DNA of 64,000 nucleotides from Psammoneis japonica (taxonomy: Eukaryota). A program made the translations under genes and the position numbers. Positions 23,813 through 63,935 of this stretch are shown piece after piece. The notes beneath the pieces were generated by a model. It worked only from the letters and a program-made list of their open reading frames with translations. It did no database searches and had not been told where the DNA came from. How positions within the stretch are numbered: position 1 is the first letter of the stretch; each line of letters starts with the position of its first letter. The DNA is taken from NCBI GenBank assembly GCA_008632985.1, contig QPGO01000032.1, positions 183,330-247,329 of the forward strand, read 5' to 3'.

Positions 23813-23842
23813 GATTGCACACCAAGGATACTCTAGCTAGTT

Positions 23843-23877
23843 GTCGAAGGTCGCAGGTCGCAGGTCGCAGGTCGCGG
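23843..23877. repeat. Heptamer tandem repeat (GTCGCAG)x5
   Basis: gtcgaag gtcgcag gtcgcag gtcgcag gtcgcgg, about 30 bp upstream of the minus-strand ATG at 23812. Confidence 0.85.
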
Positions 23878-38750: not shown

Positions 38751-38840
38751 ATGACTTGTGATGACTTTTGATCACTTTTGATGACTTTTGATCACTTGCA
38801 ATTACTTGTGATTGCTTGTGGTTGCTTTGTGATTGCTTGT
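38751..38840. repeat. 10-bp minisatellite, TA-depleted copy
   Basis: atgacttgtg atgacttttg atcacttttg … attgcttgtg; preceded by agggctgttg. Confidence 0.85.
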
Positions 38841-39650: not shown

Positions 39651-39800
39651 ATTACTTATGATGACTTATGATTACTTGTGATTACTTATGATGACTTATG
39701 ATTACTTATGATGACTTGTGATGACTTATGATTACTTTTGATTACTTTTGATTACCACTTGTGACCACTTATGATTACTTTTATGATTGCTTATGATCAG
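39651..39800. repeat. 10-bp minisatellite (ATKACTTATG)n, TA-retaining copy
   Basis: attacttatg atgacttatg attacttgtg…; agggctgttg also lies shortly upstream (39612). Confidence 0.9.
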
Positions 39801-41179
39801 TCGACGTCTTGCCGCGACCAACTCTTAATTGACATTTCACGATTAAAAACATTGGCGATTTGGCGAGCATAGAATGTGTCTTATCGCTAAAAAGCAATGT
39901 GAACCTTCATAACATTCACATATGTTTAGTCCGTTGGGTTCATATAAACACACAAAGCAGTGAAAATTCGCGGACGGTGCAGTGGCACGGTCGCGGCGTG
40001 ATACCTCGCGGGGCGGCTCGTCATGTGTAACTACGAAATGGTCATATGTGTAACTACGATCCGTCACAACAATTAACAAATTATGACAAAAAAGGTCATT
40101 TCGGTCATTGCATGAGTGTTTGAAAAATCAGATGAGAAAACAACAGACATGAATGTAAGATAAATCGTGGGTGTTTTACGCGCACAAACCACCAAAATCA
40201 GTTCACTGACCATGACAACCACAGCCGCCGCGTCTCAAAGCACAATCACCCCTGCATCACACTCGCCCAGCATAAACTGTGCATGCATCACACACGATTG
40301 CCTGCTCTGCATTGGATGCGCCACAGTCTCCGACGGTTGGCCAACATCAGACCTTGAGCTGCTGGTTGCCGCTGCAGCCTTCAAACCTCCAGAGCTTTCT
40401 CGTTTCTCGTTGACACCACCTTCCATCCTGCAGAGTCCCTCGCCAAACGTCTCAACACCATGGCTGCTCTTGGTCTTTGCCTGGGTCACTTCAGCACTTT
40501 CGCGAAATCTTCACAGGCCTGTTTTGGTTTTGATGCGATCAGCTGGAAGACAGAGTGCACAGTGAGCACTTCGTTTGCAAAGTGCACAAGAAACAGCTTC
40601 TTCACCACTGATGTCTCACCTTTTGCTGTGGCTCCACTTTCGTTGAATGTTCTCATGGTGCTGCAATTGCGGCTTGCACTCAACTCGTTCAAAAATGCAA
40701 GAAATGAATGATCGTCTGAGCCAGTTTGGCATTTTTTTGAACGAGTTGCACGCCTGTCTGACATTTTTGTGTTTTGCACAACCCCAGCATTGGCGCTTCT
40801 GTTTAAGAGCTCATTGCCAAATCACAAGCTGCTCAGGCTGTTCAATCGCTCATTTTCAATGTTCTTTCTGGAGGATGTAGAAAGCCAATCTTCGTCAACG
40901 GACTGGATTCAAAATTTTCCTGGAAATGCAAAACAAAGTGCAGCCACAGCATTTGTTTCAACTGTCAAAAATGTGCTACAATGATGGTTTCTGTGGGATT
41001 CTGCATTGGTGGGAAAATTTGGTTTTTGGCGGGAAACTTCCCTCCGACGTGGCCGCGATTTGCTGTCCGCAGCCTCCCGCCTCCTCTCCTTTTTAGTTTG
41101 CTCCCCACAATTCTTTGTTTCTGGCCATGTTGCATGGTCTCTTGCATGCATTTGCAATTGGCTCCTTTTGGTCCGTCAT

Positions 41180-44100: not shown

Positions 44101-44320
44101 CAGAATCACGGTCCACAAAATTGCCCACCAGAAAACGCACCAGACAAGAGCAAACAGACCAAATGAAGATTGACGTGAAGCTTGTGAAGAAGAAAGCAAG
44201 AAGAAATGGAAGATGGCACCACAACCTTCACCGCAGTTGCACACCCCATGATTTCCCCGGCTGCATGGCCCGTTGCTCAGTCTGGTTTGTCCTTGTTGTT
44301 TCCAACATCTGCTCTGCCAT
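41180..44320 (+). pseudogene. Mutator (MULE) transposase relic with N-terminal Zn finger and C-terminal SWIM
   Basis: SCKNPGCHFKA…GHNGH (WRKY/GCM1-type finger), TMDGTHGVVCNDFILIVFG and CLDHSRAFSNAF (MULE DDE core), VGDCEEFYKTMKCPH (SWIM-like). Broken by stops and frameshifts. Confidence 0.8.
41238..41626 (+). mobile_element. ~390-bp MITE (subfamily B), TSD GCAA
   Basis: GACGCGTTCCAG…TTGGAACCTGTC flanked by GCAA/GCAA. Interrupts the 5' part of the MULE ORF. Confidence 0.92.
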
Positions 44321-44399
44321 TTGAAATGACTGTTCTGCTGGCAAATCCGTCCGCACGTCAAGGGGCATTCCAACCAACTGTTCAACCACCTTTTGCCAT

Positions 44400-47300: not shown

Positions 47301-48700
47301 CCAAGCAAGCACACACAAGGACACCATTCATCGTCATCCACAACTGCCGCAACTCATTGATTGCCACATGCAACGGCATGCAGACGTCCTGGTTGCAAAG
47401 AAGTTACATCGACACCAAGACGACTGGCCTCTGACAGGTGGCATGTTCGGTCCTCCAGTCTAACCTCACCATGGGGATTGCAGTGAGGCTTGGTCATCAC
47501 AGCTAGTCCAGTGTGCCCTCGTGGAAACAGCAACGCCATGTCAGGGTCTGGAAGAATGAAGTGCTCACCCAGATGCTTCGCTTTGAGCGCAGTGGACGGT
47601 GGGTCCTTGTTTCGCATCTGGATGGAGAACAGAGCTTTCCAAAAATGTGCCGAGTCTTCGTCGCAACAAGCAATGGAAATGTCCTTGCAGGAGACACTTG
47701 GCTTTTTGGAGGAAGCGCAATCAATTGCTTGGCAGCACCTTTGGACATTTGCATGGTGAGATGCCAGGAGAGATTGATGTCCCTCGCATTGGGCCTGCAA
47801 CGCAGGAGGGGCAGCTTCTTCTGAGTCAGTAGAATCGCAGGAGTCGTCAGCTGCATCCAAGGGATCAAATGTGCAGGACTCGTCGTCACTGAAAAAGGAA
47901 GTCCAGACATGCACCGGAGGGCCAAACCATGCTTCTACAATGGGCGACGAAGGGGCAGACGCAGAATTCTCGCGGGCTCTTCGTGGACTTGTGTTGCATT
48001 TTGTGGACAAGGAAGAAGAGGATGATGTAGAATCGCAGCCAGAAGCAGACAGAGCAAATCCACAAGGACGCTTAAAAGGGTGACTTGACAAAAGGGACCA
48101 GATGAAGATCGCTTTGTTCCAACAAGAGACACATCATCACATCTCGACCGGGTCGACATGACAGGTGCAGACATGATCAATGGAGCCAGACAAGAAATGG
48201 AGGAACTGACACTTGATGAACCAGAAATGTTGGCAGCTTGGTGTCCGACGTTGTTCTTGGGATGCCAATGAGAATGATGATTGGATGATGAATTGTTTGC
48301 CATCACAGGAGAACCAGTGGCAGAGGGGCTGGCAAGACTCGTGGAAGCAGCGGGAGCACTCCCAGCACTGGCAGGAGATTGGTTTCGGTCACTCCAGCAA
48401 GAACGACTGTTGGATGCCACAGGCAGGTGTCCGACACTCCAGCAAGAACGATGATTGGATGCTGGAGGATCACTCACAATCATGGGAGAACCATTGGCTG
48501 ATGGGCTGGCAGCAGCCGGGGAAGTTGCAGCAGCAAGCCCAGAAATGGCGGTGTCTTGGTTTTGGTCCATCCAGCAAGAATGACAAATGTTGGCCATCAG
48601 GGGGGAACCAGCGGTGGATGGGCTGGCAGAAGATGCCGGAGATGCAACAGCGAGACCAGGGTGGTGGGGCTTGAGTGGCAGGTCCCATCATGAATGCCAT
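44400..48700 (-). pseudogene. Decayed long ORF convergent with the MULE transposase (probable TE accessory gene, function unknown)
   Basis: Successive minus-strand ORF pieces (47354-48091, 45966-46994, 45152-45691, 44651-45037) with protein-like composition, split by a MITE. No family recognised. Confidence 0.4.
45644..46039 (+). mobile_element. ~400-bp MITE (subfamily B), TSD GCTG
   Basis: GACGTGTTCCAG…CTGGAACCCGTC flanked by GCTG/GCTG. Confidence 0.95.
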
Positions 48701-49026
48701 TTAAAATGATTCGCATGGGTTGGGGCGCCGCAGCAGTCACTCATTGCGCTGTCCCAAACGTCGCATTCGCAACAATAAAAAAAGATGCAAACAGCAAGGA
48801 ATGGAAATGAGCACAGAATGAAAAAAGGAAGAGAACTCGCAAAGGACAGAGCAAAGAGAACAAGAAGCAAGAGCAAAGAGAAAAAAAAAAAAGAAAACAG
48901 AAAGAGAGCAAGCAAGAAGAAGAAGCGAGACAAAGAAACGAAAAGAGAGCAAGCAAGGGGGAGAAGGAAGAGCAATGAAGAGAGAACAAAAAAGGGAACA
49001 AGAACAGCCAAACCGGCACCAGCAGT

Positions 49027-49770
49027 GCAAAAGCATTGATGGCGCCGGTGTCAACAGGAACAAAAACAGAACGAAGAGAGAACAAAAAAGAAAAAGAGAA
49101 TGGCTGCAGCGGCGCCAACTGTGCAAAAGCATTGATGGTGCCAGCATTGACAGGAACAAAAACAGAACGAAGAGAGAACAAAAAAGAGAAGGAGAATGGC
49201 TGCACCGGCGCCAACCATGCAAAAGCATTGATGGCACCGGCATCAACCAGAACAGCTGCACCGGTGCACAACCATGCAAAAGCACTGATGGCGCTGGTGT
49301 CAACAGGAACAAAAACAGAACCAAGAGAGAACAAAAAAGAGAAGGAGAAGGGCTGCACTGGTGCCAACCGTGCAAAAGCATTGATGGCACCGGTGTCAAC
49401 CAGAATGGCTGCACCGGTGCACAACCGTACAAAAGCATTGATGGCGCCGGCATCAACAGGAACAAAAACAGAACGAAGAGAGAACAAAAAAGAGAAGGAG
49501 AAGGGCTGCACCGGCGCCAACCGCACAAAAGCATTGATGGCGCCGGCATCAACCAGAATGGCTGCCCAGCGCACAACCGCACAAAAGCATTGATGGCGCC
49601 GTCATCAACCAGAACAGCTGCAACGGCGCCAACCGCACAAAAGCGTTGATGGCGCCAGCATCAACAGGAACTGGATGGGGCGAATCATGCCTGAGTAGAG
49701 TGAAAGAGACAAAGGAACAGAAACGTCGCATTGTGAGGATCAGGTGAGGCAAAAAGCATTGATGGCACAG
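49027..49770. repeat. Tandem array built on aaaagcattgatggcgccggcatcaac with long and short unit variants
   Basis: The motif aaaagcattgatgg recurs about 10 times. Long units carry aggaacaaaaacagaacgaagagagaacaaaaaagagaaggagaa. Confidence 0.9.
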
Positions 49771-50917
49771 GCAGCAACAGGAATTGGACAGGGTGCATCA
49801 TGCCTGAGCAGAGCAAAAGAGAGAAAGGAACAACAAACAACAACGGCAACAAGAAACGTCGCGTTGTGCGGATTTGGTGAGGCAAAGATGCGGTGTGCGG
49901 TGGGATCAAAAGTGATGGGATCCGCTGCAGCAAAACTCAACTGGTTTGCACCACTGCGGCAGATCCAATCTCCAACGGATGATCGCCAACGGAAAATGTG
50001 AACAGAAATGCAAACATTCATGAACATCAATTTTGGCGAACGAAAGCGTCAAAAGGCATTGTCAAGATGTGCGCAAAATTGTGTAAAAAACAGCACTGGG
50101 GAAACAATTGGAGGACATCAATGTCAATCATCTTTGCACAAATGTGAGCCAAAGACACTTGTTTAAAAGAAAATTTGTCCATCATGTGCTTTTTTACACA
50201 AATTGTAAGAATGCACTGGCATTCCTCACCAAAATGACTGTTGACAAATTGGCCCTCGGGTTTGGAGTCATTTTGTGCACTTTGTGCAACTGCGCGACCC
50301 GTGGATGCACAGAAGCAGCCGCGGCGCAGTTCCTGCCAATCGGCCGGCCTGGCTCCAGGCAGGACAGCAACCGCCTTCCATGCGTGGCGTGCCCAGCGCG
50401 TCGCCCCCGGGCCGGGGTGCAACGGATCACGCATGGGCTCAAGTTCAAGAAACAGGCTGGCATGTTGCTTCAACAGAAAAATCTTTAACGTGCATCATTT
50501 GAGATGATTTTATGTGTGCCGATTTGTGACCTTTTTGGCGAATGTTTGGTCCGTCATCTGTCCGGTCAGATTGTTGATTTTCATGACCTCTCATGCCTTT
50601 TTCACTGTGACAAAGCACTGCACGATGGCGCCGTCACGCCGTCACGATTTTGAGCACAATGGAAGGTGGGGCATCGGTCGCCGACGATTGCATTGTTCCC
50701 TTTTGATGCGTTAAAGGCTTGAACATGTCATCAGCAACTGATGCCCCACCTTCCTTCATTGTGAAAATGCCGTCTCTTTTGCGCCATGGCCGCACCGCGA
50801 TCTTGCGAGTGATGACAAGGTGGCAGATCTTTACGTGATTCAGTGCTCATCATTTGAATTTCCAATTTTCTCACACCAACATCATCAACCGTCATCTTCG
50901 TTCGTGTGGTCTAGCCA

Positions 50918-53660
50918 TGGCATCCAGCAAGAAAAAGAGCACTGCTGCAGGAAAGAAAAAAAGCGGTTGTCCCATTAAAAAGAGAGTTGACAATGCTCTC
51001 ATTCTTTTGACAGCACATGTCTTGGTGAGCTCTGATGGGAAATGGCCAAATGCGGGAGACATTCACCGTGTGCTCCAGAACAGTGGCATTCCATCTGGAA
51101 CAACCAAAAGTGACACATCGGATGCAATCCAGAAGGGATCTGGATCCAAGGGCTTGGTTGCATTTGCAGAAAGGCCAATGACAATGAAAGGTGCTGCCGT
51201 TCATTAAAATTTGAACCCAACCCCAATGCGCCCGAATCTCAAGCCGACACTCAAATTGAATCATTCCGGATCGACTTGTTGGCCTGTGGTCTGCATGATT
51301 CCCTTGTTGAGTCCATTGATGCTCACATTGCACAATCTGCCACAAAGTCATGCACAAGGTGATGCCACTGCCAAGGAGAAAGCTCCGGTTGCACCTGTTG
51401 CCGATGAGCTTCATGTTGACTGACGCCATGCCGTGGTTGGGGTGGAGAGAAGTGCAAGCAAGCAATGTTGATGTCTGTTCAAGACAACTTGGAGAAAATG
51501 AAGAGCGGTCCGGAGATCATGCTGTGTCCCTTGCTCAGACACCAGAGAAGATTCCGCTCTCTAGTGCATTCGCCCACAGAAAAGACTGTTCCGAATTTTA
51601 CATTGATCGTTCTTCGCCAGAGGAGCTTGTGATTCGGTCTTCAAGTTGCATCTCCAGTTGCAGCAAATCCAAACTGTGTTGCAGCTGCAGTGCATTGTCA
51701 AAGTCAATGGCGTCTGTTCAGCATCAGATGAACAAGCCCCGCCCCATCAAGCCTGACATGCATCTGAACAGCATGGCGGTGCACATGCTGGGAGCAGATG
51801 AGACAGCCAATGCAACAAAGACTGTCAGAGCTCATGCCAAGGCAGAGAAGAATCGACTCAAACTTCGAATCAAGCGGCTTAAAAGCAAGATTGAATCAGC
51901 TGAGACAACGGAGGAGGTTGACAATCCAACGGACATAAGATTTTGAAGGATGCGATGGAGACAGCATTGCGGATCGCAAAAGAGAGGTTTGGTGAAGAGT
52001 CCTTGCAGTGTCATGTGCTTGCAGCACAATTTGAAGTCATCCAAGGGAAACGATTCAACAAGGATGGCACGGTGTTGAAAGGCATTCGGTGTTCGCCAGA
52101 GGTTCTGTCGCACTCTCTCTCATTGCTTCGAGATGCGAATGGTCGGGTCTACGAATCCCTTCAGAAGGTGCTGCACCTGCCCGATCCAAGATGCATCAGG
52201 AAGGCAATGGCAGATTTTGTTGGGGACACTGAGGATGGGCCGTGCTTTGAAATGATTGGCACAATGAAAAATCAACATGAAGAGTGGTCGAACAAACCCC
52301 GGCAAGTCTTCAGGATGGAACGACGTTGTGGTTGCATTTGATTCCATGACTTGTCTTCTGGCATGATGTTGGCCGTCGCAACAACAAGAAGAATCAGACA
52401 GCCGGTGCACTTCTGCCTGAGAACATGGACATTGCCAATCAGCTGTTTGATGGCTTCATGCACAGGTTGACGGAAGAGAAAGGACTGCATGGCAAGGGAA
52501 ACAAGATGGAGAAAGTTGCGGAGTCGCCAGTGTTGAACAAAGAACACAGTGTTTGTCATGCTGCATCAATGAACCCGAGTTGTGACATGAGCTTTATTGC
52601 TGGAGTGCACAACATGCCATCGATCAAGGCAAGTGACATCTCGATGCAAATGGATCAGGTTGCTGTGGCACTTGCAGAAAACGGAATTATGAAGCGGATG
52701 GAGGTGTCGGATTGTGCCGGGGCGAATGTTTTCTGCACCAATGGATGGTGCAACAAGCCAGCCAATGAATGCATTCCGCAAGATGTGTTGGAGCGGCACG
52801 GGCAGATGGAAACTGCATGATTGCTTGTGAATCTTACGTGGACGGGGAGCCCGTGTTCAGTGTGGACGACATGCCACACTTGTTGAAGCGCACTGGGAAT
52901 GCAATGAGAAACAAACCTTTGTCTTGGACACCCGACAGGGGACGACCAATGGATCTCTCAATGTTGGGTGACGTGCATGAAGCCGTCGGTCTTGTCGAGA
53001 TGAGTTTGCACTGGCTGAACATCGAAACCTGAGTCCAAGCATTTTCGACAAGAAAGCGTCCCGTGCTCAGTGCATGAAGGTCAAGCCTGTGGCTCGTGTG
53101 TTGAGCAATGCCATGGTCAAAGCAGTTGACCAAGTGTGCAGCGACCCAACCATTGATTTCCCAAAGGTCCCTTTCTCACAGCACACTAATGTCTTGAGCA
53201 AGGCAAGGGAGTTGTGCTGCAAAATGAATCGTTGGTTTGACATTTGTAACTCACGCGATCCTGCAAAAAGGGACAAGGATTGGAGGGTTTGGGCAACTCC
53301 AAGAAATGGGAAAGCCATTGCAGATGAGCTGCTTGGCACCCTCAAATGGATTGAAGAATGGCAGGAGTCATAACGGGGCCTGATGGGCTGCAGAGAAAAA
53401 GCACTGCATTCCAGATGAGACGCCAGACAGTTTCAGGCGATGCTGCCACGGGTTTGCATCCCTGATGTGCCATCACGTAATTGGCAAGAGATGTTCCACT
53501 CTCCTCTGCCGCATCAACCAAGATTGTTGCGAGCACCATTTTGGCCATGTCCGTGGTGCGTTTGGCAACACCAGCCATTCCACCACGGCACATGCCATGC
53601 ATGTACCAAGGGCTCGCATTGGAAAAAAGCCGTGATGGCGAGCGACAAGCAAAATGTAAC
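50918..53660 (+). pseudogene. P-element/THAP9-like transposase relic
   Basis: SPEVLSHSLSLL…VYESLQKVLHLPDPRCIRK, VVVAFDSM, VSDCAGAN, DMPHLLKRTGNAM, MKVKPVARVLS, MNRWFDICNSR and INQDCCEHHFGHVR are the P-superfamily motifs in the expected order. Confidence 0.88.
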
Positions 53661-53773
53661 GCTCGAGCCCCGGAAACGTCGCAGAATGGAACAATCTATT
53701 TTATGGTAATTGATGTTGTGGCGGTGTTATTTTTTTGTACATTGCAGTAGGAAAGTGTGTGCAGAGTTGCAAT

Positions 53774-56303
53774 TCACAACTTCGCATCCTCGTGTGCTGC
53801 AGCTACGCGAGTTCGCGTTGCCAACCTTTCAGCGTTGCTGATCGGCCTTGAATTGCAAACAAGTTTCAATGAGTCACTGGATTTGAGTGCAGAGTAACAA
53901 CTTAACAGGAAGACATGGCACATTCGCCATGTTCCCTTTCTCTGTTTTAAGTCGAAGGAGGGCGGCATACATTTCAAAAACTTCTGGCGCAAAGGTGCGC
54001 TTTTTCGGGCCGTTTCCAAAATCCTCTTTAGTGTTTGTCCTCGGTGATGAATCACTTGTCTAGCATTGAAATTTACCATGAACATTGCCTCCAAAAGGCA
54101 CATGAATGCAAACCAGCTTTCGCCGCTTTGTCGTAATGCCCCGGGTTTGTAATCTTATCGTCAACAATGCGAGTTGGCATCTTGGCATCGCGCGCAGCCT
54201 CCAGGCTCACAGTGTTGAAAGCTACAAAGGCAAGAAGAGTTTCTTTGTCTGCTCCTCTCAATTTGACATCACGTGCTTTGTTGATCAACCACCCCGAAAC
54301 ATGACACACCGTGTGACTGGCCCCGCCACCTCTCAGACGATCGACATTGTTGTGTCGTCTACGTCATCATCCATTGCCGTCTCAGTTTGTTTGTAAAGAT
54401 AAGATTCCCATGCTTCATACAAGTTTTCATGCAAGCGCCCAAAATATGTTCGCACCAAAACAAAAGATGGGTCACTCCCTTGCAGGAAGTTTTCAACAAC
54501 AAACTTGACGAATCAATGCGCCTGTCTCGCTTTCTCCATGCAAGTGCTTCTTCAACCCGTTTGTCAACAGTGTTTGGTTTTGCTTGATCTAGTGTCCAAC
54601 ACAACTTGCGAGAAAATACACCAATTTCAGAATGTAAACATTCTTTGAGAGATTCACTTCGAGCAATTGCATCGAGCCTCACACTGTTGGCAGTTGATGC
54701 CGAGGCTGTTTTTGCCAGGGCGTCTTCAACACATTTTGATGCATCAATTGCTTTCACAATTTCATCAATTTCACATCCATCATGTTTGCAGACAGGAAGA
54801 GGAACAATGCCCTTTGATTGTTTGAACTTGAGCCACCGCTGAGAACAATGCCGTCGGTTCTGAAGAATGCACAGAGATCGCAAGAGAACGTCAAACTCCG
54901 TGTCGTCGCCTTTCCTTGGCAAGTTCTGTCGCAATGTCCACATCCGGGCATTTGATCGATCATAAACTCACATTTGAAAAAACTTGTCCAGCTGTTCCCT
55001 GCATTCTGCACAATTTGGTGGCTCCTCTGAAGCAACAAGAGGGGGGACGGTGTCAGGCGGCACCTCGGGTGCTGCCATCTCATCCGATTCTGTGGCGTTC
55101 GACACCCACTGATTCACTTGGGCAGAAGCTTCACTCTCAATATCGGGTGGAATATCATCATATTCTTCAAAATCATCCTCTTCTTCAAATTCTGAAGACG
55201 AATCAGCTGCCGGTACAGTCGTCATCGTAAAGAAACAGCTCTCGCTTCAGTGTCGGAGGGAGAAATAAAATTCTCAGATTGCACGTAATTTCAGTGCTGA
55301 AACACAAGTAGAAAGGACAGCAAAAAGACGTGCAGGCCAACCCACATTCACAAAATGGGACTCTCATGGAGGCCCACCCCTGTGGCAGGGGAGCTGTGTG
55401 TGTGTGCGTGGTTGTGCGCACGGCTTTGCCGTGCGTTGAGTTTTAATGTCAATGTCCACACGGCAAGTGCAAAAAGGGAGTGGCACAGCGATCCCACACT
55501 GCACTTGCAGGCACCCAAACTCCATCGTTGAGGCAGAGTTTGCCAAAATAATTTGGAACTCTGTCGATGACATCATGAGCTGTGACAGAGTCAATGTCCC
55601 AGCGGAGCTCCCATCCTTCTTCTTGGAGACGTGTGGCGACTGTTCCGATCCATTCACGCTGCTCCTGAAATGCTCGGAGGTCCGCAAGATCCTGTGAGCC
55701 TGGAGTGCATTCGTCGAGTTCATCCTGAGGGCATTTGTCAGGATCATTTTCATGGAGCAAAGACAACAAACGTTGGCAGTCTTTGTCAAGAGTCTTTTCC
55801 TGAGGGTGCCGATGCACGCCAATCTTGCAAGTAACGCCATTGCTTGGGTCACACCCCAACTCAAAAATGTCATGTTCATCATAATCAGAGTCTTTGTCGT
55901 CATCAAGCGTGGCAACAGACGACGCCATTTTGTTGGCCACAACACCCAAAAACGCCTCTGAAGCAGCAAAGCCATCAGTGCACCGCTCCCAGCAGTTGCG
56001 GTTCGTGTCTGGCTTGGCATCTTCTAAATTACACACCCTGATGTCAAAGTCATTCGGCTTGGTGTCCACCTGTGTGCAGGCGCGGCCCCCGAGAACGACC
56101 TGCCACTTGAGATTCGGACCCATGACGGCCAGGGATGTGGGATCCACCACATCAGAAAGAATGCCATCACTGCCAGTGCTCTTCTCCGTCAACGACGATT
56201 TCCTCATCCACACACCCGTGTCTCGGGATGATGATGTTGCAGACAGGAAGCGATGGAAACCACCAGCGCGAAACGAATGGCTGATGCCGAGACGACACAA
56301 CAT
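53774..56303 (-). pseudogene. Decayed ORF(s) convergent with the P-like transposase, probably the same element
   Basis: Minus-strand pieces 55449-56303, 54968-55225, 54359-54943, 54073-54309 (CHVSGWLINK) and 53774-54103. Protein-like and partly TA-depleted. Confidence 0.5.
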
Positions 56304-56615
56304 TAAAAATGTGGAGGGATTGCAGCACCTTCAATTGTCAAAGGCAAAGCAATGATCAAAACGGGAGCAGACAGCCAAACAAAAAATGGTTTCGCGATCG
56401 ATTTTGCCATCGCCAAAATTCATTGCGTTCGTCCGTCGCATTGGCACAAATTTACGTAGATTCTACGTGCTTGAGCTCTGGCGCCTGTAAGATCGGGTTT
56501 TCAAATTGTCGTAGAAAGCTGCGTGTTTTTACTGCCAGGGTGCCTGCACAAGCTCTCTCGCCATTTTTGAAATCTTGCTGTTGTTGTTAGACTCTTTTTT
56601 CTCTTTGTGACCATT

Positions 56616-56881
56616 GACGTCCATTTGTGCCTCATGACATTTGCGACATGCGTTTGTCAATGTTCGATTTCTGTGGCCCCGAATTGTTTGCACGTGCGGC
56701 CCTCAAATTGAAGACATCTCAAACACTTGTCGAAAAACACTTGTTGAGACGTCTGTTTGTGCCTCACGACATTTACGACACGCGTTTGTGAATGTTCGAT
56801 TTCTGTGGCTCCGAATTGTTCACACGCATGGCCCTCAAATTGAAGACATCTCAAACACTCATCGAAAACACTCATTGAGAC
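56616..56881. repeat. Tandem duplication, 132-bp period
   Basis: gacgtc..tttgtgcctca…aatgttcgatttctgtggc…ggccctcaaattgaagacatctcaaacact starts at 56616 and again at 56748. Confidence 0.92.
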
Positions 56882-57899
56882 ATTCGTCTTCTCACCTTTT
56901 CGAAATTCAAAGTGCAGCAATCACAACCAGTTCATCTGTGTTCATCACGAGGCTGGTTGTCAACTTAGTTCTGATTGCAAACTGTTGGCTCACACGCTTC
57001 CTCTGCGACAAAGTGTTCTCAATCGAACCAGCAACGTTCTCAGGAACTTCAAGACCTCATCATGGCGGATGCTGACGCGCTTGCTGATGCCATCGCACAA
57101 GCCATCCAGGCGGCTGTCCAGCCGACTGTGAACAACATGCTGCACACTTTTTGTGTGTTTGGCTTGTTGTGAGGCAGTGATGGTTTCTAGTTCGGGATGC
57201 AAGAACCAATGCAAGAAGGGTGTGCAGGTTGGTTTCGAAGCGTCGTTGTCTTGCTGCTGTTTGTTGGCTTCTTGCTGCTTGATTTTTGAATGCACATGAG
57301 GTGCACTGCCAGAGCGGCCAAGGCAGTGACTGTTGCGATCGCAGTCAGTGTCACAGCGGTCATTGCCGTGGCTTGGTTGTTCGCATTGCTTGTTTTGTCT
57401 TGTTCTTCTCCTTCGTTGTGATCATTCCTTGGATGCACCTGCTGGGCTGTGAGCAAGCTCAGACCACCAATCAACAACAAGAAAGTGCCCGCGAGAAACC
57501 ATTGCAGACTGTCCGCGGCCGGAAGAGCACAGCCACAGCAACCGCAACCACAGCACTTCATTCTTTTTTGTTCTCTTGTCTGTGAGAGTGTTTGTTTGGA
57601 AGCAAGGCACGACAGTGGGAGAGAAGTGACACAACAAACACACAGCAATGGCTTCAACGTCTTGTGACTGTGTTTTGGCGATTCCAAATTTCGGGTGTGC
57701 CACGAAAAAACTGGTTGTCAGCCAGACGTGCTGACTCGTGATTTTGGCGTGAACCTCAACCCGATCGATGATGATGGATGAGAAGCCCACAGCCCCTGCA
57801 AACCGTGTCACCAAACTTGACACAATTGTTCTTCGCACTCTCAATTCATTGCACAAATTGCTGACATGACAAAATCAACAACCTCTCCCGGCCATGCAA

Positions 57900-60560
57900 G
57901 TCCTTCAAAAGGTGAAGCTGTGTTTCTCATCTAATCTGCATGGCCAGCAGAATGGTCTCCTCAGGCTCGTTTCTTTCTTTGCGACAAAAGGTGCTCGGAG
58001 AAAAACTCTTCGCCCCTGCACTCGGGGCAATCTCGTAGATTCTCATGCTGTGGTGCTTTGGATCCATGCTTGGTGGACCTCTGTTGATCTCCAGCAACTT
58101 GAGATGGTTGCAATGAATGGGTTCAGTTTGAAAATGGCTTGGGATCTCGGGTGCATTTCTTCCGAACAGTTTGTGCCACAGCTTGAGATTGCATCGACAC
58201 GTGCCGCGGAAATTCAAACTGTCGGTGAGCATTCGCTGCATGCCCATGTTTCCAAAATGAGCTGGCAGATGGTGAAACTTTTCCAATGAAGACTCGCCCT
58301 TTTCAGAAATGCATCGAGGTGGTTTGTGTTTCGATTGGGCAGATGCGAGTTTCTTGTGGCAGTCGCCAACAATCTCTGGCAGATGCTGAGCTTTTCCATC
58401 AACGCTCTCACTGCTTGTCTTGCTCCTTCCATGAACAGGGTTTTTCCATTGTCCAGCTCTCCTTGTCCTGCTGGCTCACCATCACTGTCACTCACTTTGC
58501 ATGGGCACCACCAGTCCCTCAACTTAATCCTTGCGAGCTCTCCTGGAACAGGAATCTTTTGGATGCACTGCCCACAGCGAAATCCAAGATCTCATCAGGC
58601 TGGTGGATGCAGCCATTCATTGTCCCGTCTCGCAGTGTTGCCACTGCGGCTGCTTCATCCGCTTGGTTCAGACTGCACAGGCAGCTCAAGAAAGAGCGGA
58701 GAGCTTTGTTGAAATCCTTGTGATCTTTCCGCATGAACTTGGTGACGTGCTGAATTGCATGGAACAAGCCAAGTTGACCAATTGTTGCAAATCCGTACAT
58801 TGTCTTGAAGAATGGATCAAGATTGGGCCATGCATCCATGTGCACATGCTTTGGGTTAAAGTTTGGTCATCTTGCAGTTTGCTCAACACCGTGGGCACTG
58901 TCTGACATTGCGGCAGAGTCAACAAGTCCAAGCCAGGTGATGAATCCCGCATCAGTTGACTGCTGGCACAAGCTTGAGTGCCCAGTGATGATGGGCAGTT
59001 GCTCAACATTGCGTGGGTGTGATTGAAGGCTGCAGAAGTTTTGCAGCCGCATGACTGCATTTCTCTCTTGTGACGGTCGTCGTCGCTCACGCCACACATG
59101 GTGAGATCAGAGGAGTTGGCTTCTTTGCAAAGATCTGGCAACTGAGCACTTGATGGCGGGCACTGTCCTCGCCACTCTTCAATTGATGGAAAGTCTGGAA
59201 AAGGTTTGTCCTTGCAACTCTTGTCAGAGCTGCAATGTGACAGTTCCAGTTCTTTGTGCCGATGGTTTTGACTTCAGAAGAGCGTTCGTGACACCCACTG
59301 TGCACCAGATTCTGTTAGAGTGGCCTCCTCCAGCAGAAAGGACACCTCTTTGTGAAGCAAGAAGAAGGATGGCTTCGAGCAATGCAAGGGATCTGCTGGG
59401 AAGCTTCAATGTGCGCAGTCTTGTAGAGAATGACGCAGCAGTCTACCATCACACGACTTGACAAACTCTCCACAATTAGAGCACTTGTGTGCAATGCCAT
59501 GCTCCCAACCCGCATGACCTTTTGTTCTGAAAATGGGCATCGCACTGCTTGCAAACCTGGTGCCGCCGCACTCTGCCCTCGTGTGCTCCAGAAATCCGTC
59601 CCACATGAAAAACACTTCAATGGCAAGTCTGGCATGTTCAGTTCCCACCGAGCCAAACATGTTGTTGAGCCTTGAATGGACTCATGCATTGGGTCGGGAA
59701 CTTCATTTTCTTTCCCACCCACCAACAACACCGTGAACGCAACATTTCCACACGGAAAGTGGTCGCGGCACCAAGAAATGCGTTGTTCACCTCCACCAAG
59801 CTTCTTGGCACCATTGGAGTTGGTGCAAACTCTTGGGCATTGCATGTGAATGAATTCCAGCAATGCCAAAATTGGAAGAGGCACTTTTCTGTTGTCTTGA
59901 GCGAGTTGCTCTTTCTCACTTGTGCTCCACGTTGACATCACAGCGGGTGTCGCTTTTTTAGATGCGACGCAGTCATTTTCTTGTGCAGCAACGGCTTCAA
60001 CACATCCTTGGATTCAACGCTGCTGAGAGCATCCCCAGCTGAATTGTTGTTGTTGCTGGGTGGATTAGAATCTGCTGAGGACTCAGACACATCAAAAAAC
60101 ACTTCTTGTGCACTTTCTGCACTTCCCTCTGGCAAAGAGAAAAAAGATCTTTCCAAAAGGCTCCTCAAATGAGATTGTTTCTGCAATCTTGTGGCAGTGC
60201 CACAAGGAAATCTGGCTCTACCTCTTTCAGAACTTGAGTGACAATTTTCTCTGGCAGCTTGTAATTTGAAGCATTTGGATTCTTGTGGCATGTGTCGTCA
60301 TGACCCTTCTTGCAACCCGGCCCTTTGACACACCGTTTGCACGTTTTCGTTCCGAAGTCAACCCGAGTTGTGACTTTTTCACAAATCTTCTTGCTTTTCT
60401 TGCATTGATTGCACCTCCATTTGAGTTCATCAGCTTTGTCAATTTCCTTTTTCTTTCTACGTCACTCCGCTTCACCCTCTTTTGTGCACTTGTTCAAGGG
60501 GTGGGGCATCAGCCTCGATGCATTTTGCTTCAACTCCTTCAGTCGCGAAGGACTTGACTG
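57900..60560 (-). pseudogene. Unclassified DNA-transposon transposase-like relic
   Basis: PKHVHMDAWP…LGLFHAIQHV and CISEKGESSLEKFHHLPAHFGN, an 'RGxSxLExFH'-type motif I associate with transposase-like ORFs. Heavily decayed. Confidence 0.5.
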
Positions 60561-62829
60561 GCTTTTTGGCCCCACCATTGTTTCAAGTGCAGGCATGGAA
60601 ATGAGAACGCAAAGGGGCTCTTGACAAACCCTTGTTGAAAAGGAAAGATGTTGATGAAGCATGAAGTGTGCACTTGCAACAACGATGAGGGTTGTTGTCA
60701 TGAAGAGCGTTCCAGAAAAAGGCCAAAAAGATGGCGCGCGACGACGACTGTCACACTTCTGCGGATTTTTTGTATGAGGGGGGGGGGGGATGTCACAGGT
60801 GCTTAAATGAGGCTGAATTTTGTGGGGGGCTTGAGCAAATGCACCCCCCCCCCCCGCAAAATCGGGCAAGGAGGGGTGTGTGACTCTGGAGAATCACCGC
60901 CACTGGTGCACGTGAGATTTGCAGGAAGGTTCTTGGCATCAACTGTGGAGAACCACAACACTGCTGAGAGGTGTTTGTGTGGCTTTCACAAATCAGCAGG
61001 TGGTGGGCCAAGGGGGAGGCCACTCCATTTGTCCCTCATGCAAGAAAAACGGCCACATCGGCCTGCTGCTGCTTTGGCACCTCAAACAAGCCAATGTGCA
61101 AGACAAGTGATTCACCTTGGCATGCGCCACTGTGCCATGACAGTTCAGCACATGTTGTGATTGCAAAAGGCAAAACAGAGACAGGGTCATGATGTTCTGC
61201 AGGCAATGCAGCAAGATGCGCGGCCTCACACATCTGCTGTGTGACAAAGGAGTGCACCTGGAGGCAGTTTCCAAACTGCTTGCAAAGTTGTGCTCCAAAA
61301 AATGCTGCCAGGAACATGCCAAAAGAGAGAAAACCAGTGCCAGGCAGCATGACAGGAGTCTCAACTGTGCCTCTGGAAGAGATGCAAGAGAGCCTTGCTT
61401 GCACTCACAAGAAGCACCACAAAGCCACTTGACTGCAGTTGGATGAGGAAGCAAAGAAGAGAGGTGCTCGCTGACTTCACACCAGTGCTTTGTTCAAAAA
61501 AGCAAAGCACCTGTGCCAGCAGTGCCACGACAGCTGCCCCATGCAAAAATTGGGGTCTGAGTGCTCAGTCGCAGAGAGACAGAGAATTTCTGTTGTGTGT
61601 GAAATTGTTGTGAGATCATTTTATGTAGAGCATGCGCATGTGCAACAGCAAGACACACTGAGCACGGAGTTCTGAGTCCTTGCACGGAATCAGTCACACT
61701 CGGCACTGCGCACATCCTGCGCAGACCCTTCATGCAAGGTGAGTCACTTGCGCGATGGCCAGTCGCGCCGGTCTCAGTCGTGTGGACCCCTGCAGCCTCT
61801 CGCAGGTCTCATGCTGCGAGTCGCATTTCCCAATCGCGCTTCTGCGGGATCAGCATCGCTGCGGACAGCCTGCAGACGCAGGAAAGCAGCATCAACCGCA
61901 ACGACGGCTACGCAGCGCAGGGATGCCTGCTGCACAGCACAATCTTCAAAGGCCTTGTTGCCCATGCAAACAAGATTGCCCAGACTGGGTGCAGCGCCAC
62001 ATTGTGCAAGACAGCCGTGCCCAGATGCAGAGCACAATTGCTGCACTCAAGCTGTTTGGCCAAAATCATCCATTGGAGATGATTTTCACTGACAAGACAG
62101 GAGCAGACAAACTCTTCCTGCTGCAAGAGGCTCTGCTGTTGCAGTGGTGCAAAGCCAGGCACAGCCCAGCTGCTTCAGCCCAGCCAAGCAATGATGAACA
62201 TTGTTGGAGCAAGTTAGATGAGGGTGTCAGAGAACCTGGAAACAGTTGAAGTCTGTGGATGTTTGTCTCCTGATGTGGCTGCCCGTCTGATGACGATGTG
62301 TTCTTTGTCATTGCACTGTCGTCCCCAAAATGAAGCATTCTCACTCTTTGTGGTGAATCATCTGGTCTGTCAACTGTTTTCATTGGTGCTGGGAAGCACC
62401 TGTTAAAACCAAATCCTTTTGGTGTGTGAAGTTACGTTGAATGATCTTCCAGGCAAAGAACCACAGCCGCACAAGCAGTGTGTGTGTCAAGAGTGGAGGA
62501 AGCTTTGTTTGCCACCATTGACATGTTGGTTCAACATTTGCTCCAAAGAGTTGTGAGCGTGTAAGAGACAGCTCACCATACGAAGTCTACATTCTCTCAA
62601 AGAAATGAGCAGCCTGCACGATGAGTGGCAGAGGAGCAAGCAATCCGCGCAAGAAAGGCCAAGACCAAAAGTGTGGCCAAGGCAGTGGAAACAAGAACCA
62701 CAAGTCTTCTGGATCAAAGCAGAAGACACACAGCAACAGGAGCTTTAACCCTGAAATAAATTCCATCCATCAATGATGAACAGCAACTCTTGCAACCCAA
62801 CGTTTGAAGATGTGAACAAGACGAAGATT

Positions 62830-63500
62830 GTGCATTGCATCCAGAAAGAGCACACACAAAAAGAAAGTGCTTGGCACTGTCACTTGAAGACATGAAGTGT
62901 CAAGACTTCTTGGGTGAAGAACCAACCTTGAAGGTGTCCAACGAAGCAAAGGGCTCACCAGAAGCAGAGCAAGAGAACAGACAGTTCGAATGTGAGCACA
63001 AGGCTGAACTTGGAGATCGCCAATGCAAGACAAAACAGCTCAAGGAGAACAAGAACAAGGCACTTGCAATGATTCTCAATGACTGCTGCACGAAATTAAT
63101 GAGGCAGAGAGTGCAAGCAGATCCAACCTGCAAGGCAATCAGGGACAATCCTGTTGAGCTGCAGCGTTCAAGGCCAGCAACATGGGGCCACACATGCTCA
63201 AACTGAGCAAGGAGTTCTTCGAGAACGTCCAATGGCTGCAAGAAGAAGAGTGACACACAAGTCTGAATGTGACAAAGATGAGGAAGTCAAGGCAGAAGAT
63301 GCCAAAACCCAGCAGTGAGTCAGGGGCCGTGATTCCATCTGCCAAAGAAAGCGCCAAGAAGGGCTGCACAAAACAGGAGATGTTGCAAGCAAAAGAGGCA
63401 CCGAGATTCTGTTGTGAAGCCAGCATCCCAAGCATGTGGGATTGCAAACATTTCTTGTGTTCTAATCAGGTGAAGAACTTGACCATTGCACCAGATGATG
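62830..63500 (+). pseudogene. Copia (CoDi-type) gag-like fragment
   Basis: QLKENKNKALAMILNDCCTKLMRQRVQADPTCKAIRDNPVEL resembles diatom Copia gag as I recall it. Confidence 0.55.
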
Positions 63501-63532
63501 CTGATTGAATGGCGGCCATTTGGGGTCCACCA

Positions 63533-63935
63533 GACGTGTTCCAGCTCTAGGTGGGACCTCGTACCACTGAACTGTGACATAATTATTTTTTATCATCCGT
63601 CGCATGTTTCGCACGTACATTTCTACGTGTTCTCTATTATAAAAAATTGTTCCACACTGCCTGTTTTGCGAAGCCAAAGGCTTTCTGTTACTGCATCTGC
63701 ACTTATGTCAATAAAAATGCGCTGGGTATATTCTTTAATGTCTAAAGAATATACCCGGGCATGCTGTAAAGAATGTACTTCAAGTGTGGAGGAGGAGATG
63801 CGTTCGCAAAATTGCCTCTTTTTCTGTTGGCGATCATTCATATATTCATTGCTTAATAATTTTACTACGGAGCTCGCACGTAGAATTCTACGGGCCCAAT
63901 GTCACAAAAAGTCCCACCTAGGACTGGAACCCGTC
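63533..63935 (+). mobile_element. 403-bp MITE (subfamily B), TSD ACCA; least mutated copy
   Basis: ~25-bp TIRs GACGTGTTCCAGCTCTAGGTGGGAC / GTCCCACCTAGGACTGGAACCCGTC, flanked by ACCA/ACCA. TA-rich, unlike its surroundings. Confidence 0.96.

What the first reader, a model, noticed from the sequence alone, without database searches (positions are those of the whole stretch)
63533..63935. Six MITE copies form a mutation time series and fix the polarity
Seen: aligning 63533-63935 with 45644-46039 gives about 22-24 sites with TA in the first and TG or CA in the second (ctcTAgg/ctcTGgg, gggTATAttc/gggTGTGttc, gaaTATAccc/gaaCACAccc, gctTAaTAat/gctTGaCAat). There are also two CA/TG reciprocal sites, only about 2 other substitutions and 2 small indels, and CpGs are essentially conserved. 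Some sites show all three states. ctcgcacg[..]gaa is TA at 63881 and 27076, TG at 45985 and CA at 41572. atg[..]cttcaa is TA at 63776, TG at 45880 and CA at 26971. Inference: TA is ancestral, TA loss outpaces CpG decay, and load accumulates with age (63.5k lowest, 14.8k highest). A TA-rich copy inside a TA-free host implies the process acts in situ after insertion.
Basis: seen in the sequence. Interest (0 to 1): 0.88.

Follow-up and report, generated by a model that had tools for sequence, protein, structure and literature searches.

The report
TA-erasing hypermutation recorded in MITE copies
Six copies of a small mobile element in a diatom-like alga show that this genome converts TA dinucleotides to TG or CA in its non-genic DNA, a mutation process so far reported only once, in an unrelated alga.

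Summary
Copy 63533-63935 differs from copy 45644-46039 at 23 sites that are TA in the first and TG (15) or CA (8) in the second. There are none the other way, 2 CA/TG reciprocal sites, 3 other substitutions, 2 indels and no CpG difference.

The six copies are MITEs: roughly 25-bp terminal inverted repeats, 4-bp target duplications, and an empty-site allele for the 45.6-kb copy.

TA is the ancestral state. A TA->TG/CA model beats the reverse model by 37.9 lnL units.

The "time series" holds only loosely. The copies fall into three subfamilies. The 45.6-kb copy lost about 80% of its TAs with no CpG loss, which looks like a burst rather than a clock.

The process is regional. 41 kb of non-genic DNA has TA O/E 0.10 against 0.57 in gene blocks, and synonymous TAs in genes are spared.

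The 3' neighbour matters: T > C > G >> A.

The same TpA-only hypermutation was measured directly in Bigelowiella natans (bioRxiv 10.64898/2026.01.13.699255). This window's closest named relatives are diatoms, so I file it as a new member of a very recently described kind.

The parts
63533..63935 (+). MITE copy c63k (subfamily A). It is the least mutated copy: 30 TA, 18 CpG, TA O/E 0.89. TSD ACCA.
   Evidence: A contig skipping 407 bp (403 + 4) hints at an empty-site allele, but only 20 letters lie on the shorter side.
45644..46039 (+). MITE copy c45k (subfamily A). 6 TA, 18 CpG. 23 TA sites converted to TG (15) or CA (8). TSD GCTG.
   Evidence: An empty-site contig joins 45639 to 46040, skipping 400 = 396 + 4, with 116 letters on the shorter side and 4 shared letters.
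26735..27130 (+). MITE copy c26k (subfamily B). 11 TA, 22 CpG. TSD TTTG.
28103..28498 (-). MITE copy c28k (subfamily B), sister of c26k and inverted 972 bp away from it. 15 TA, 22 CpG. TSD CACC/CACT (3 of 4 match).
   Evidence: (I1: 393-nt arms, 90% complementary)
41238..41626 (+). MITE copy c41k (subfamily C). 8 TA, 12 CpG. TSD GCAA.
14850..15248 (-). MITE copy c14k (subfamily B), the most decayed: 1 TA, 6 CpG. Ends are approximate. The TSD is unclear (GGCA, displaced by 2 nt).
1..3200 (.). TA-depleted block in which CpG is also largely lost.
3201..14400 (.). TA-normal gene block. It holds two unnamed ORFs, a dsRBD protein and an LRR protein. The intergenic stretch 7201-7600 holds 31 TA.
14401..16800 (.). 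TA-depleted and CpG-poor block that holds c14k.
16801..24800 (.). TA-normal gene block. It holds Sec24 (17117-19348 plus 19382-20698) and an unnamed ORF (22688-23836, minus strand).
24801..39200 (.). TA-depleted block. It holds c26k, c28k, the Hcp-like remnant and a TG/CA-rich tandem array.
39201..40400 (.). Small TA-normal island around ORF 39030-39608.
40401..63532 (.). TA-depleted block. It holds c41k, c45k and a P-element-like transposase remnant. A partial exception lies at 53.6-54.4 kb.
36148..36522 (-). Hcp-like ORF (bacterial type VI secretion tube protein family) inside TA-depleted DNA.
   Evidence: Pfam T6SS_HCP E 1.7e-13. Aligns to PDB Hcp1 chains, best E 2e-10.
52981..53370 (+). 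Remnant of a P-element-type transposase (TNP-like GTP-binding insertion domain).
   Evidence: Pfam PF21788 E 7.7e-6

Best explanation
The six sequences are copies of a non-autonomous DNA transposon (MITE) of about 400 bp. They have sat for different lengths of time in DNA that this genome subjects to a regionally targeted mutation process. That process converts 5'-TA-3' to TG or CA, that is, A to G on one strand or the other. TA is the original state. The 63.5-kb copy is a recent, almost untouched insertion, and the others are partly or almost fully converted. The process hits non-genic DNA whether or not it is repeated today, and it spares gene blocks, including their promoters and synonymous sites. 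It runs faster than CpG decay in the same DNA. It prefers T, then C, then G after the target A, and largely spares TAA. It probably works in bursts. Shown here: the pattern, the polarity, the regional restriction and the sequence context. Inferred: that the agent is an enzyme deaminating adenine to inosine in DNA, guided by a chromatin or silencing mark, as proposed for Bigelowiella natans.
For: Pattern: 23 TA->TG/CA sites and 0 in reverse between c63k and c45k, with CpG untouched.

Polarity, by four tests. First, on 72 dinucleotide columns the forward model has lnL -331.25 and the reverse model -369.11, with equal parameter numbers. Second, 13 columns show all three states TA/TG/CA. Third, at 11 of the 16 scorable c63k/c45k sites another copy carries the opposite product, and at the other 5 another copy carries TA. 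Fourth, close copies differ by reciprocal TG/CA dinucleotides: 7 for c26k/c28k and 2 for c63k/c45k. These are single steps only if the ancestor was TA or CG.

Element identity: TIRs match at 22 of their first 25 positions (24 of 32 compared) in c63k. The 4-bp TSD is perfect in 4 of 6 copies. An empty-site contig skips exactly element + TSD.

Regional targeting: depleted DNA (41.2 kb) has TA O/E 0.10, CG 0.55, TG 1.59 and CA 1.61. Gene blocks (20.4 kb) have TA 0.57, CG 0.96, TG 1.17 and CA 1.18. Within genes, TA O/E is 0.57 at codon positions 2-3 and 0.63 at positions 3-1. Block boundaries are sharp at 400-bp resolution.

Not repeat-dependent: 15 unique-depth bins have TA O/E 0.111 and 12 repeated bins 0.103.

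Ongoing: of the 40 displayed differences between the window and other contigs of the same sample, 9 are TA<->TG/CA and 19 are CG<->TG/CA.

Context: residual TA density in depleted DNA relative to genes is 0.89 for TTAA, 0.04 for ATAT and 0.03 for ATAC. In the MITE copies the edited fraction by 3' neighbour is T 0.73, C 0.59, G 0.49 and A 0.40.

Precedent: mutation-accumulation lines of B. natans gained 230 of 231 mutations as A->G or T->C in two integrated viral regions. Those GC-biased changes all fall on TpA, the rate was about 1000 times the baseline, and only some lines were affected (bioRxiv 10.64898/2026.01.13.699255; abstract, Results and Discussion read).
Against: Equal-cost parsimony on the six-copy tree does not favour TA. 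Of 24 columns with TA in some copy, it roots TG or CA alone in 9 and TA alone in only 4. The case for TA rests on models that allow parallel directional decay.

Only six copies were available. They share ancestry, so the cells are not independent.

In-place mutation is not proven for any single copy. c45k may have been copied from an already converted source.

No strand-coordinated runs of TG or CA appear (pooled z +2.79, meaning more alternation than expected). This gives no support to a processive single-strand enzyme.

No deaminase gene could be sought because no whole genome is held.

The sequencing runs that confirm the sequence are probably from the sample the window was assembled from, so they are not independent.

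The 40 differences analysed are the rows displayed out of 685. The tool chose them by support.
Confidence: 0.8

Rival explanations
1. Reverse polarity, as in fungal RIP. TG and CA are ancestral, and the 63.5-kb copy is the derived one, hit by C->T at CpA on both strands.
For: All 23 changes sit on one branch, so either direction is possible for the c63k/c45k pair alone. Equal-cost parsimony roots TG or CA at 9 of the 24 TA-bearing columns.
Against: The reverse model fits worse by 37.9 lnL units. The 13 three-state columns and the reciprocal TG/CA differences would each need two adjacent substitutions. The surrounding DNA is TA-poor and rich in TG and CA, the opposite of what a RIP-like process leaves. 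TA makes the CTAGG core identical in both TIRs of c63k, whereas c45k has TG in one and CA in the other when read in the same sense.
Confidence: 0.02
2. The conversions were inherited rather than acquired in place. Each copy was made from a source element that was already converted, so the six copies sample master lineages and are not post-insertion clocks.
For: The copies fall into three subfamilies separated by 18-32% at other sites. c45k is heavily converted, yet an allele without the insertion survives in the sample. It differs from c63k by only 3 other substitutions.
Against: The sisters c26k and c28k carry 7 reciprocal TG/CA sites and 6 one-sided TA losses, so they decayed independently after they separated. 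Unique flanking DNA is itself TA-free and polymorphic at TA sites. This rival changes where the mutations happened, not what the process is.
Confidence: 0.3
3. The pattern and polarity are the same, but the chemistry differs. A base modification at TA, such as a hypermodified thymine or N6-methyladenine, mispairs at replication. No adenine deaminase is involved.
For: The data here do not separate A->G on one strand from T->C on the other. The depleted blocks also show CpG decay (CG O/E 0.55 against 0.96), so they are probably chemically marked chromatin. From recall, not from any call: thymine is replaced by 5-hydroxymethyluracil at TpA in dinoflagellates.
Against: No evidence here for any such modification in this lineage. 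The only study of the phenomenon favours an ADAT2-like deaminase, and that too is only by homology.
Confidence: 0.15
4. Selection against TA or GC-biased gene conversion removes TA, rather than a TA-specific mutation process.
For: TA is mildly under-represented in most genomes (recalled). In the gene blocks here TA O/E is 0.57.
Against: G+C is nearly equal in the two compartments (0.508 against 0.495). AT, AA and TT are not depleted, so there is no general AT->GC drive. Selection on every TA of dead MITE copies and of unique spacer DNA, but not on synonymous sites of genes, is implausible.
Confidence: 0.04
5. The pattern is an assembly or base-calling artefact at modified bases.
For: The library type of the confirming runs is not on record, and they may be the assembly's own data.
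Against: Contigs built separately from the run agree with the window: 811 of the 3787 laid are 99% or more alike, at a word depth of about 50-100. States are shared between sister copies in a tree-like way. A second haplotype shows ordinary polymorphism at these sites.
Confidence: 0.02

Closest known systems
TpA-specific hypermutation of integrated viral DNA in Bigelowiella natans (Mettrop et al., bioRxiv 10.64898/2026.01.13.699255; abstract, Results and Discussion read)
   Same: Changes are only TpA->TpG/CpA. The process is confined to particular regions while ordinary genes keep a normal spectrum. It leaves TpA-depleted, CpA+TpG-enriched clusters that hold transposon-type domains. It is episodic, affecting only some lines. 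Foreign DNA is among its targets.
   Different: That organism is a rhizarian, whereas this window's closest named relatives are diatoms. There the hypermutable virus region still has Rho(TpA) 0.45, and only 124 short clusters were found genome-wide. Here about 64% of a 64-kb window sits at TA O/E 0.10. Targets here include MITEs and unique unannotated spacer DNA. The 3'-neighbour effect and the coupling with CpG decay are not mentioned in that paper's main text. No direct rate measurement exists here.
Repeat-induced point mutation (RIP) of fungi
   Same: It is a genome-defence-like process restricted to one dinucleotide. It degrades transposon copies and leaves compositionally distinct blocks beside normal genes.
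   Different: RIP turns CpA into TpA and makes AT-rich, TA-rich blocks. Here the direction is the opposite. RIP needs duplicated sequence. Here unique-depth DNA is as depleted as repeated DNA.
CpG decay by deamination of 5-methylcytosine
   Same: The products are the same (TG and CA). It also occurs in these blocks: 7 CG/TG/CA columns in the MITE copies, 19 of the 40 displayed polymorphisms, and CG O/E 0.55.
   Different: It starts from CG, not TA, and is slower here on every terminal branch. It cannot remove TA.
ADAR / ADAT2-type adenosine deaminases
   Same: They change A to I, which is read as G, and prefer a U or T before the target (as stated in the preprint's Discussion).
   Different: Their usual substrates are RNA. 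DNA editing is reported for amphioxus ADAT2, which I know only as cited in the preprint. The one dsRNA-binding protein in this window shows no deaminase domain. ADAR's 3' preference for G is recalled, not tested, and would not match the T > C > G >> A order seen here.

Membership tests
TpA-targeted A:T->G:C hypermutation (Bigelowiella type) | Substitutions are almost only TpA->TpG or CpA. | tested here: met
   Between c63k and c45k there are 23 single TA->TG/CA substitutions, 4 more in the 2 reciprocal dinucleotides, and 3 other substitutions. The forward model is preferred by 37.9 lnL units.
TpA-targeted A:T->G:C hypermutation (Bigelowiella type) | It is confined to particular regions, and ordinary genes are spared. 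| tested here: met
   TA O/E is 0.10 in 41.2 kb of depleted DNA against 0.57 in 20.4 kb of gene blocks. Synonymous-type positions in genes are at 0.57-0.63, and boundaries are sharp. This is judged from composition, not from measured rates.
TpA-targeted A:T->G:C hypermutation (Bigelowiella type) | Targets are foreign or mobile DNA. | tested here: inconclusive
   MITE copies, an Hcp-like remnant and a P-type transposase remnant lie in the depleted DNA. Most of that DNA has no recognisable origin: 128 of the 132 ORFs scanned had no Pfam family at E <= 0.01. Unique DNA is equally depleted.
TpA-targeted A:T->G:C hypermutation (Bigelowiella type) | The rate is raised by orders of magnitude and seen as de novo mutations. 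| not testable with these tools
   There is only indirect evidence. c45k lost about 80% of its TAs while 3 other substitutions accrued. 9 of the 40 displayed polymorphisms involve TA, although TA makes up about 0.6% of dinucleotides in the depleted DNA.
TpA-targeted A:T->G:C hypermutation (Bigelowiella type) | It is episodic rather than constitutive. | tested here: inconclusive
   c45k shows TA exposure 0.79 with CpG exposure 0. c41k and c14k show both. This fits bursts, but there are only six copies.
Fungal RIP | C->T at CpA, producing a gain of TpA. | tested here: not met
   The direction is the opposite.
Fungal RIP | It acts only on duplicated sequence. | tested here: not met
   Unique-depth bins have TA O/E 0.111 and repeated bins 0.103. 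The tool warns that depth is a poor copy-number measure.
MITE (non-autonomous class II transposon) | Terminal inverted repeats. | tested here: met
   In c63k, 22 of the first 25 end positions match between the two ends (24 of 32 compared). The ends are conserved across the copies.
MITE (non-autonomous class II transposon) | Target-site duplication of fixed length. | tested here: met
   4 bp: ACCA, GCTG, TTTG and GCAA are perfect, CACC/CACT matches 3 of 4, and c14k is unclear. The empty-site contig skips 396 + 4 bp.
MITE (non-autonomous class II transposon) | Short, without a transposase ORF, and present in many copies. | tested here: met
   The copies are 389-403 bp. The ORF across c63k has no Pfam hit. 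There are six copies in 64 kb. Summed word depth is about 40,700-41,300 over the bins that hold c45k and c63k, against 58-110 in unique bins. The tool warns this is not a copy number.
MITE (non-autonomous class II transposon) | Assignment to a transposon superfamily or an autonomous partner. | not tested
   No partner was found. The only transposase remnant in the window is P-type, a superfamily that I recall makes 8-bp duplications.

The most novel reading that the evidence does not exclude
A diatom-related lineage has a chromatin-wide, TA-specific DNA adenine-editing system with motif 5'-TAB-3' (TAA is spared). It has already rewritten most non-genic DNA to a TA-free state and disarms new transposon insertions within a span shorter than the divergence of the two haplotypes. 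Seen together with Bigelowiella, this would make an 'inverse RIP' an old, shared genome defence of the stramenopile-alveolate-rhizarian group and would point to a natural DNA adenine deaminase.
Probability: 0.35. Interest if true: 0.88.

Novelty: new member of a known kind. Interest (0 to 1): 0.72.

Why it matters
Dinucleotide-specific hypermutation used as a genome defence was long known only from fungi (RIP, C->T). A TA-specific A->G counterpart has been reported once, in a 2026 preprint on a chlorarachniophyte.

This window suggests the process also exists in a diatom-related alga, and on a much larger scale. It shapes about two thirds of the sequence, creates a compartment without TAA or TAG stop codons, and acts on DNA transposons and unique spacer DNA as well as on viral inserts.

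The MITE copies give an internal control for direction and relative speed. The TA-context analysis gives a motif (TAT and TAC preferred, TAA spared) that any candidate enzyme must reproduce.

If an enzyme is responsible, it would be a natural DNA adenine deaminase. To my knowledge (recalled) that activity is otherwise best known from engineered TadA variants.

There is also a practical point for annotators. In such compartments long open frames occur in all six frames and are not genes.

Tried and rejected
- **Whole genome.** None is held for this window. I could not collect all copies, build a genome-wide tree or search for a deaminase.
- **Metagenome scan.** I scanned with a 15-base motif invariant in all six copies. 
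- **Earlier findings of this scan.** Nothing for this genome or this sequence. The one word match is a phage island unrelated to this case.
- **RNA runs.** No RNA holder is listed.
- **Equal-cost parsimony.** It is indecisive because parallel directional decay misleads it. I replaced it with the model comparison.
- **Strand-coordinated runs.** The runs test for TG versus CA gave no deficit of runs (pooled z +2.79). The site set is noisy, and I draw nothing from the excess alternation in c14k.
- **Outside polarity test on the Hcp-like ORF.** I looked for tyrosine replaced by cysteine or histidine relative to solved Hcp proteins. The sequences are too divergent to read single steps.
- **The dsRNA-binding protein at 7500-10634 as a possible ADAR-like enzyme.** No deaminase domain was found by Pfam at E <= 1, by PDB sequence search, or by the Atlas search of residues 400-1045, whose best score was 0.77.
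- **Literature.** Six searches found only the Bigelowiella preprint for TpA-specific DNA hypermutation and nothing for diatoms. Subscription journals are not covered.
Full report

Yes. The sequences at 63533-63935 and 45644-46039 align over their whole length.
- I count 23 positions where the first copy has TA and the second has TG (15) or CA (8). None goes the other way.
- There are 2 dinucleotides that read CA in one copy and TG in the other, 3 further substitutions and 2 indels covering 7 columns.
- No difference involves CpG. Each copy has 18.
- Four more copies lie at 26735-27130 (+), 28103-28498 (-), 41238-41626 (+) and about 14850-15248 (-).
- TA counts run 30, 15, 11, 8, 6 and 1 for the 63.5k, 28k, 26k, 41k, 45k and 14.8k copies.

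**2. What the element is.**

It is a MITE.
- The copies are 389-403 bp and carry no recognisable coding capacity. Their ends are inverted repeats; in c63k 22 of the first 25 end positions match (24 of 32 compared).
- They are flanked by 4-bp duplications. ACCA, GCTG, TTTG and GCAA are perfect, CACC/CACT matches 3 of 4, and the oldest copy is unclear.
- In contigs built from a public run of what is probably the same sample, one 424-nt contig joins 45639 directly to 46040. It skips 400 bp (396 + 4), shares 4 letters across the joint, and has 116 letters on its shorter side. That is an allele without the 45.6-kb insertion.
- A similar joint skips 407 bp (403 + 4) at the 63.5-kb copy, but it has only 20 letters on one side and is therefore weak.
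- Summed word depth over the bins that hold c45k and c63k is about 40,700-41,300, against 58-110 in unique bins. This hints at many copies genome-wide, although the tool warns that this figure is not a copy number.
- I could not assign a superfamily.

**3. Polarity.**

With equal costs it is not decisive. Of 24 columns that have TA in at least one copy, parsimony on the tree ((c63k,c45k),c41k,((c26k,c28k),c14k)) roots TA alone in 4, ties TA with TG or CA in 10, prefers TG or CA in 9, and ties TG with CG in 1. Parsimony is known to fail in exactly this way when many lineages decay in parallel in one direction, as at CpG sites. I therefore used tests that do not assume symmetry.

- **Model comparison.** I used a four-state dinucleotide model on the 72 columns in which all six copies hold TA, TG, CA or CG. 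It had separate TA-process and CpG-process lengths per branch and a small symmetric background. The TA->TG/CA version gives lnL -331.25 and the TG/CA->TA version -369.11, with the same number of parameters.
- **Three-state columns.** Thirteen columns show all three of TA, TG and CA. From TA each state is one step away. From TG or CA, two adjacent changes are needed.
- **Support from the other four copies.** Of the 23 c63k/c45k sites, 16 can be scored in all six copies. At 11 of these another copy carries the opposite product, and at the other 5 another copy carries TA. The remaining 7 sites cannot be scored because other subfamilies differ there.
- **Reciprocal differences.** The sister copies c26k and c28k differ by only 8% at other sites, yet they differ at 7 reciprocal TG/CA dinucleotides. 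This is expected only if both decayed independently from a common TA or CG.
- **TIR symmetry.** With TA, both TIRs of c63k carry the same CTAGG core.
- **Surrounding composition.** The surrounding DNA is poor in TA and rich in TG and CA. That is the end state of TA loss, not of a RIP-like gain of TA.

**4. Is it a time series?**

Only loosely.
- At columns outside TA and CG sites, the copies form three subfamilies. c63k and c45k differ by 2.8%. c26k and c28k differ by 8%, with c14k at 18-19% from them. c41k stands alone. Differences between subfamilies are 18-32%, mostly transversions. So the six copies are not one burst sampled at six ages.
- Estimated terminal-branch TA exposures are 0.05 (c63k), 0.24 (c28k), 0.40 (c26k), 0.79 (c45k), 1.20 (c41k) and 1.61 (c14k). 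The CpG exposures are 0, 0.06, 0.03, 0, 0.33 and 1.06.
- c45k breaks the clock. It lost about four fifths of its TAs with no CpG loss and 3 other substitutions, and an allele without the insertion still survives. Either conversion comes in bursts, or c45k was copied from an already converted source.
- The rank correlation between TA exposure and private changes at other sites is about 0.71 on six points, computed by hand. It is not significant.

**5. The wider picture in the window.**

TA O/E is 0.27 for the whole window, with TG at 1.46 and CA at 1.47. The distribution is bimodal, with sharp borders at 400-bp resolution.
- Gene blocks (3201-14400, 16801-24800, 39201-40400; 20.4 kb) have TA O/E 0.57, CG 0.96, TG 1.17 and CA 1.18.
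- The rest (41.2 kb, MITE copies excluded) has TA 0.10, CG 0.55, TG 1.59 and CA 1.61. G+C is almost the same in both (0.508 against 0.495), and AT, AA and TT show no loss.
- In the nine ORFs taken as genes, TA O/E is 0.57 at codon positions 2-3 and 0.63 at positions 3-1. Intergenic stretches inside gene blocks are TA-rich: 31 TA in 7201-7600 and 31 in 21201-21600. The genes are therefore spared by the process, not merely protected by selection on protein sequence.
- Depletion does not depend on present copy number. Fifteen unique-depth bins have TA O/E 0.111 and twelve repeated bins 0.103.
- Some blocks have lost CpG as well: 1-3200, 14.4-16.8 kb, 37.2-38.0 kb and 60.8-63.2 kb. This fits TA loss as the faster process and CpG loss as the slower one.
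- All six MITE copies lie in TA-poor flanks (flank TA O/E 0.05-0.15). Five of them still hold more TA than their flanks.
- Recognisable remnants in the depleted DNA are an Hcp-like ORF of bacterial type (E 1.7e-13) and a P-type transposase domain (E 7.7e-6). The other 130 of the 132 ORFs scanned gave no family, or only a weak hit below Pfam's cut-off (2 ORFs).
- Without TAA and TAG, the depleted DNA carries long open frames in several frames at once. These are not genes.

**6. Is it still going on?**

The run contigs include a second haplotype about 2% different from the window, for example 10 differences in a 424-nt contig. Transitions dominate: 612 of the 681 places tabulated. Of the 40 differences displayed (645 more were not shown), 19 toggle CG with TG or CA, 9 toggle TA with TG or CA (7 with the TA in the other contig, 2 with it in the window), and 12 are other changes. 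TA makes up only about 0.6% of dinucleotides in this DNA (259 in 41.2 kb), so its share of the polymorphisms is very high. The direction of these polymorphisms cannot be set without an outgroup.

**7. Sequence context.**

Residual TAs in depleted DNA are not a random sample. Relative to gene blocks, density is 0.89 for TTAA, 0.33 for CTAA, 0.27 for GTAA, 0.23 for CTAG, 0.22 for CTAC, 0.11 for ATAA, 0.09 for GTAC, 0.05 for ATAG, 0.04 for ATAT and 0.03 for ATAC. An additive reading fits all ten classes roughly. In it, each strand's target A is lost at a rate set by its 3' neighbour: about 1.6 for T, 1.2 for C, 0.7 for G and 0.06 for A, in log units (my arithmetic).

The MITE copies give the same order independently. 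The edited fraction is 0.73 (T), 0.59 (C), 0.49 (G) and 0.40 (A), with A against non-A at Fisher p = 0.013. The cells share ancestry, so that p-value is optimistic. TG and CA products show no strand-coordinated runs.

**8. Whose genome, and what is in print.**

The window is eukaryotic. It encodes a Sec24 protein whose closest named relatives are all diatoms: Thalassiosira, Fistulifera, Nitzschia, Cylindrotheca and a Bacillariaceae MAG, at 34-39% identity. Unnamed environmental sequences reach 72%.

Six literature searches found one relevant work, bioRxiv 10.64898/2026.01.13.699255, of which I read the abstract, Results and Discussion.
- In mutation-accumulation lines of the chlorarachniophyte Bigelowiella natans, 231 of 302 nuclear mutations fell in two integrated viral regions.
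- 230 of those 231 were A->G or T->C, and these all fall on TpA.
- The rate was about 1000 times the baseline, and only some lines were affected.
- The authors also found TpA-depleted, CpA+TpG-enriched clusters enriched in transposon domains, and they proposed an ADAT2-like DNA adenine deaminase.
- The main text mentions neither diatoms nor any trinucleotide context.

**9. Mechanism and rivals.**

- **Shown here:** a regionally restricted, ongoing, TA-specific conversion to TG or CA, with a 3'-neighbour rule, running faster than CpG decay.
- **Inferred:** the agent is an enzyme that deaminates adenine in DNA and is directed to silenced chromatin. The CpG decay suggests these blocks are cytosine-methylated.
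- **Not separable here:** a TA-specific base modification that mispairs at replication. I give this about 0.15.
- **Live for individual copies:** whether a given copy mutated in place or inherited its state from a converted source. I give this about 0.3 for c45k.
- **Rated very unlikely**, for the reasons in sections 3 and 5: reverse polarity, selection or biased gene conversion, and artefact.

**10. Verdict.**

The clock-like "time series" is overstated. The phenomenon is no longer categorically new, because it was measured directly in another alga in 2026. What is new here is a second, unrelated lineage, a far greater extent, transposons and unique spacer DNA as targets, and a target motif. 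The main limits are six copies, one window, no whole genome, and confirming reads that are probably not independent of the assembly.

Noticed in passing
window 7500-10634 (+): A 1045-aa ORF has a single dsRNA-binding motif at residues 336-397 (E 2.6e-11) and no other recognisable domain. I checked it as a possible ADAR-like enzyme, and no deaminase signal was found.
   Followed up: yes
window 36148-36522 (-): An ORF matching the bacterial type VI secretion tube protein Hcp (Pfam E 1.7e-13; PDB Hcp1 E 2e-10) sits inside TA-depleted DNA of a eukaryotic window. It is probably an old bacterial insert, and only the first 85 of the 129 profile positions are matched.
   Followed up: partly
window 52981-53370 (+): A remnant of a P-element-type transposase (TNP-like GTP-binding insertion domain, E 7.7e-6) lies in TA-depleted DNA.
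   Followed up: no
window 24801-64000 and 1-3200: Because TAA and TAG are nearly absent, ORFs of 100-400 codons overlap in up to six frames, for example at 37051-38500. Almost none has a family match, and gene finders would over-call here.
   Followed up: partly
window 37050-38500: A TG/CA-rich tandem array with a period of about 310 bp (families D3, D5, D9 and D10). It has almost no TA or CpG and is open in all six frames.
   Followed up: no
window 48970-49830: A tandem array with units of 96 and 153 bp (families D2, D4 and D14). The copies differ largely by CG/TG/CA toggles.
   Followed up: no
window 26735-28498: Two MITE copies (c26k and c28k) lie in inverted orientation 972 bp apart. Their arms are 393 nt long and 90% complementary. 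This could be a composite element or a chance pair.
   Followed up: no
window 19348-19382: The Sec24 reading frame is split into ORFs of 744 and 439 codons, about 30 bp apart. The break could be a short intron or a frame break. I did not resolve it.
   Followed up: no
window 44001-64000: Contigs of the public run show a second haplotype about 2% divergent, with a strong transition excess and presence/absence polymorphism of MITE insertions. This implies a heterozygous diploid with recently active elements.
   Followed up: partly
window 53601-54400 and 39201-40400: These are small islands of near-normal TA inside depleted DNA, around ORFs 53777-54154 (-) and 39030-39608 (+). Neither ORF has a family match. 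They may be isolated live genes that the process spares.
   Followed up: no
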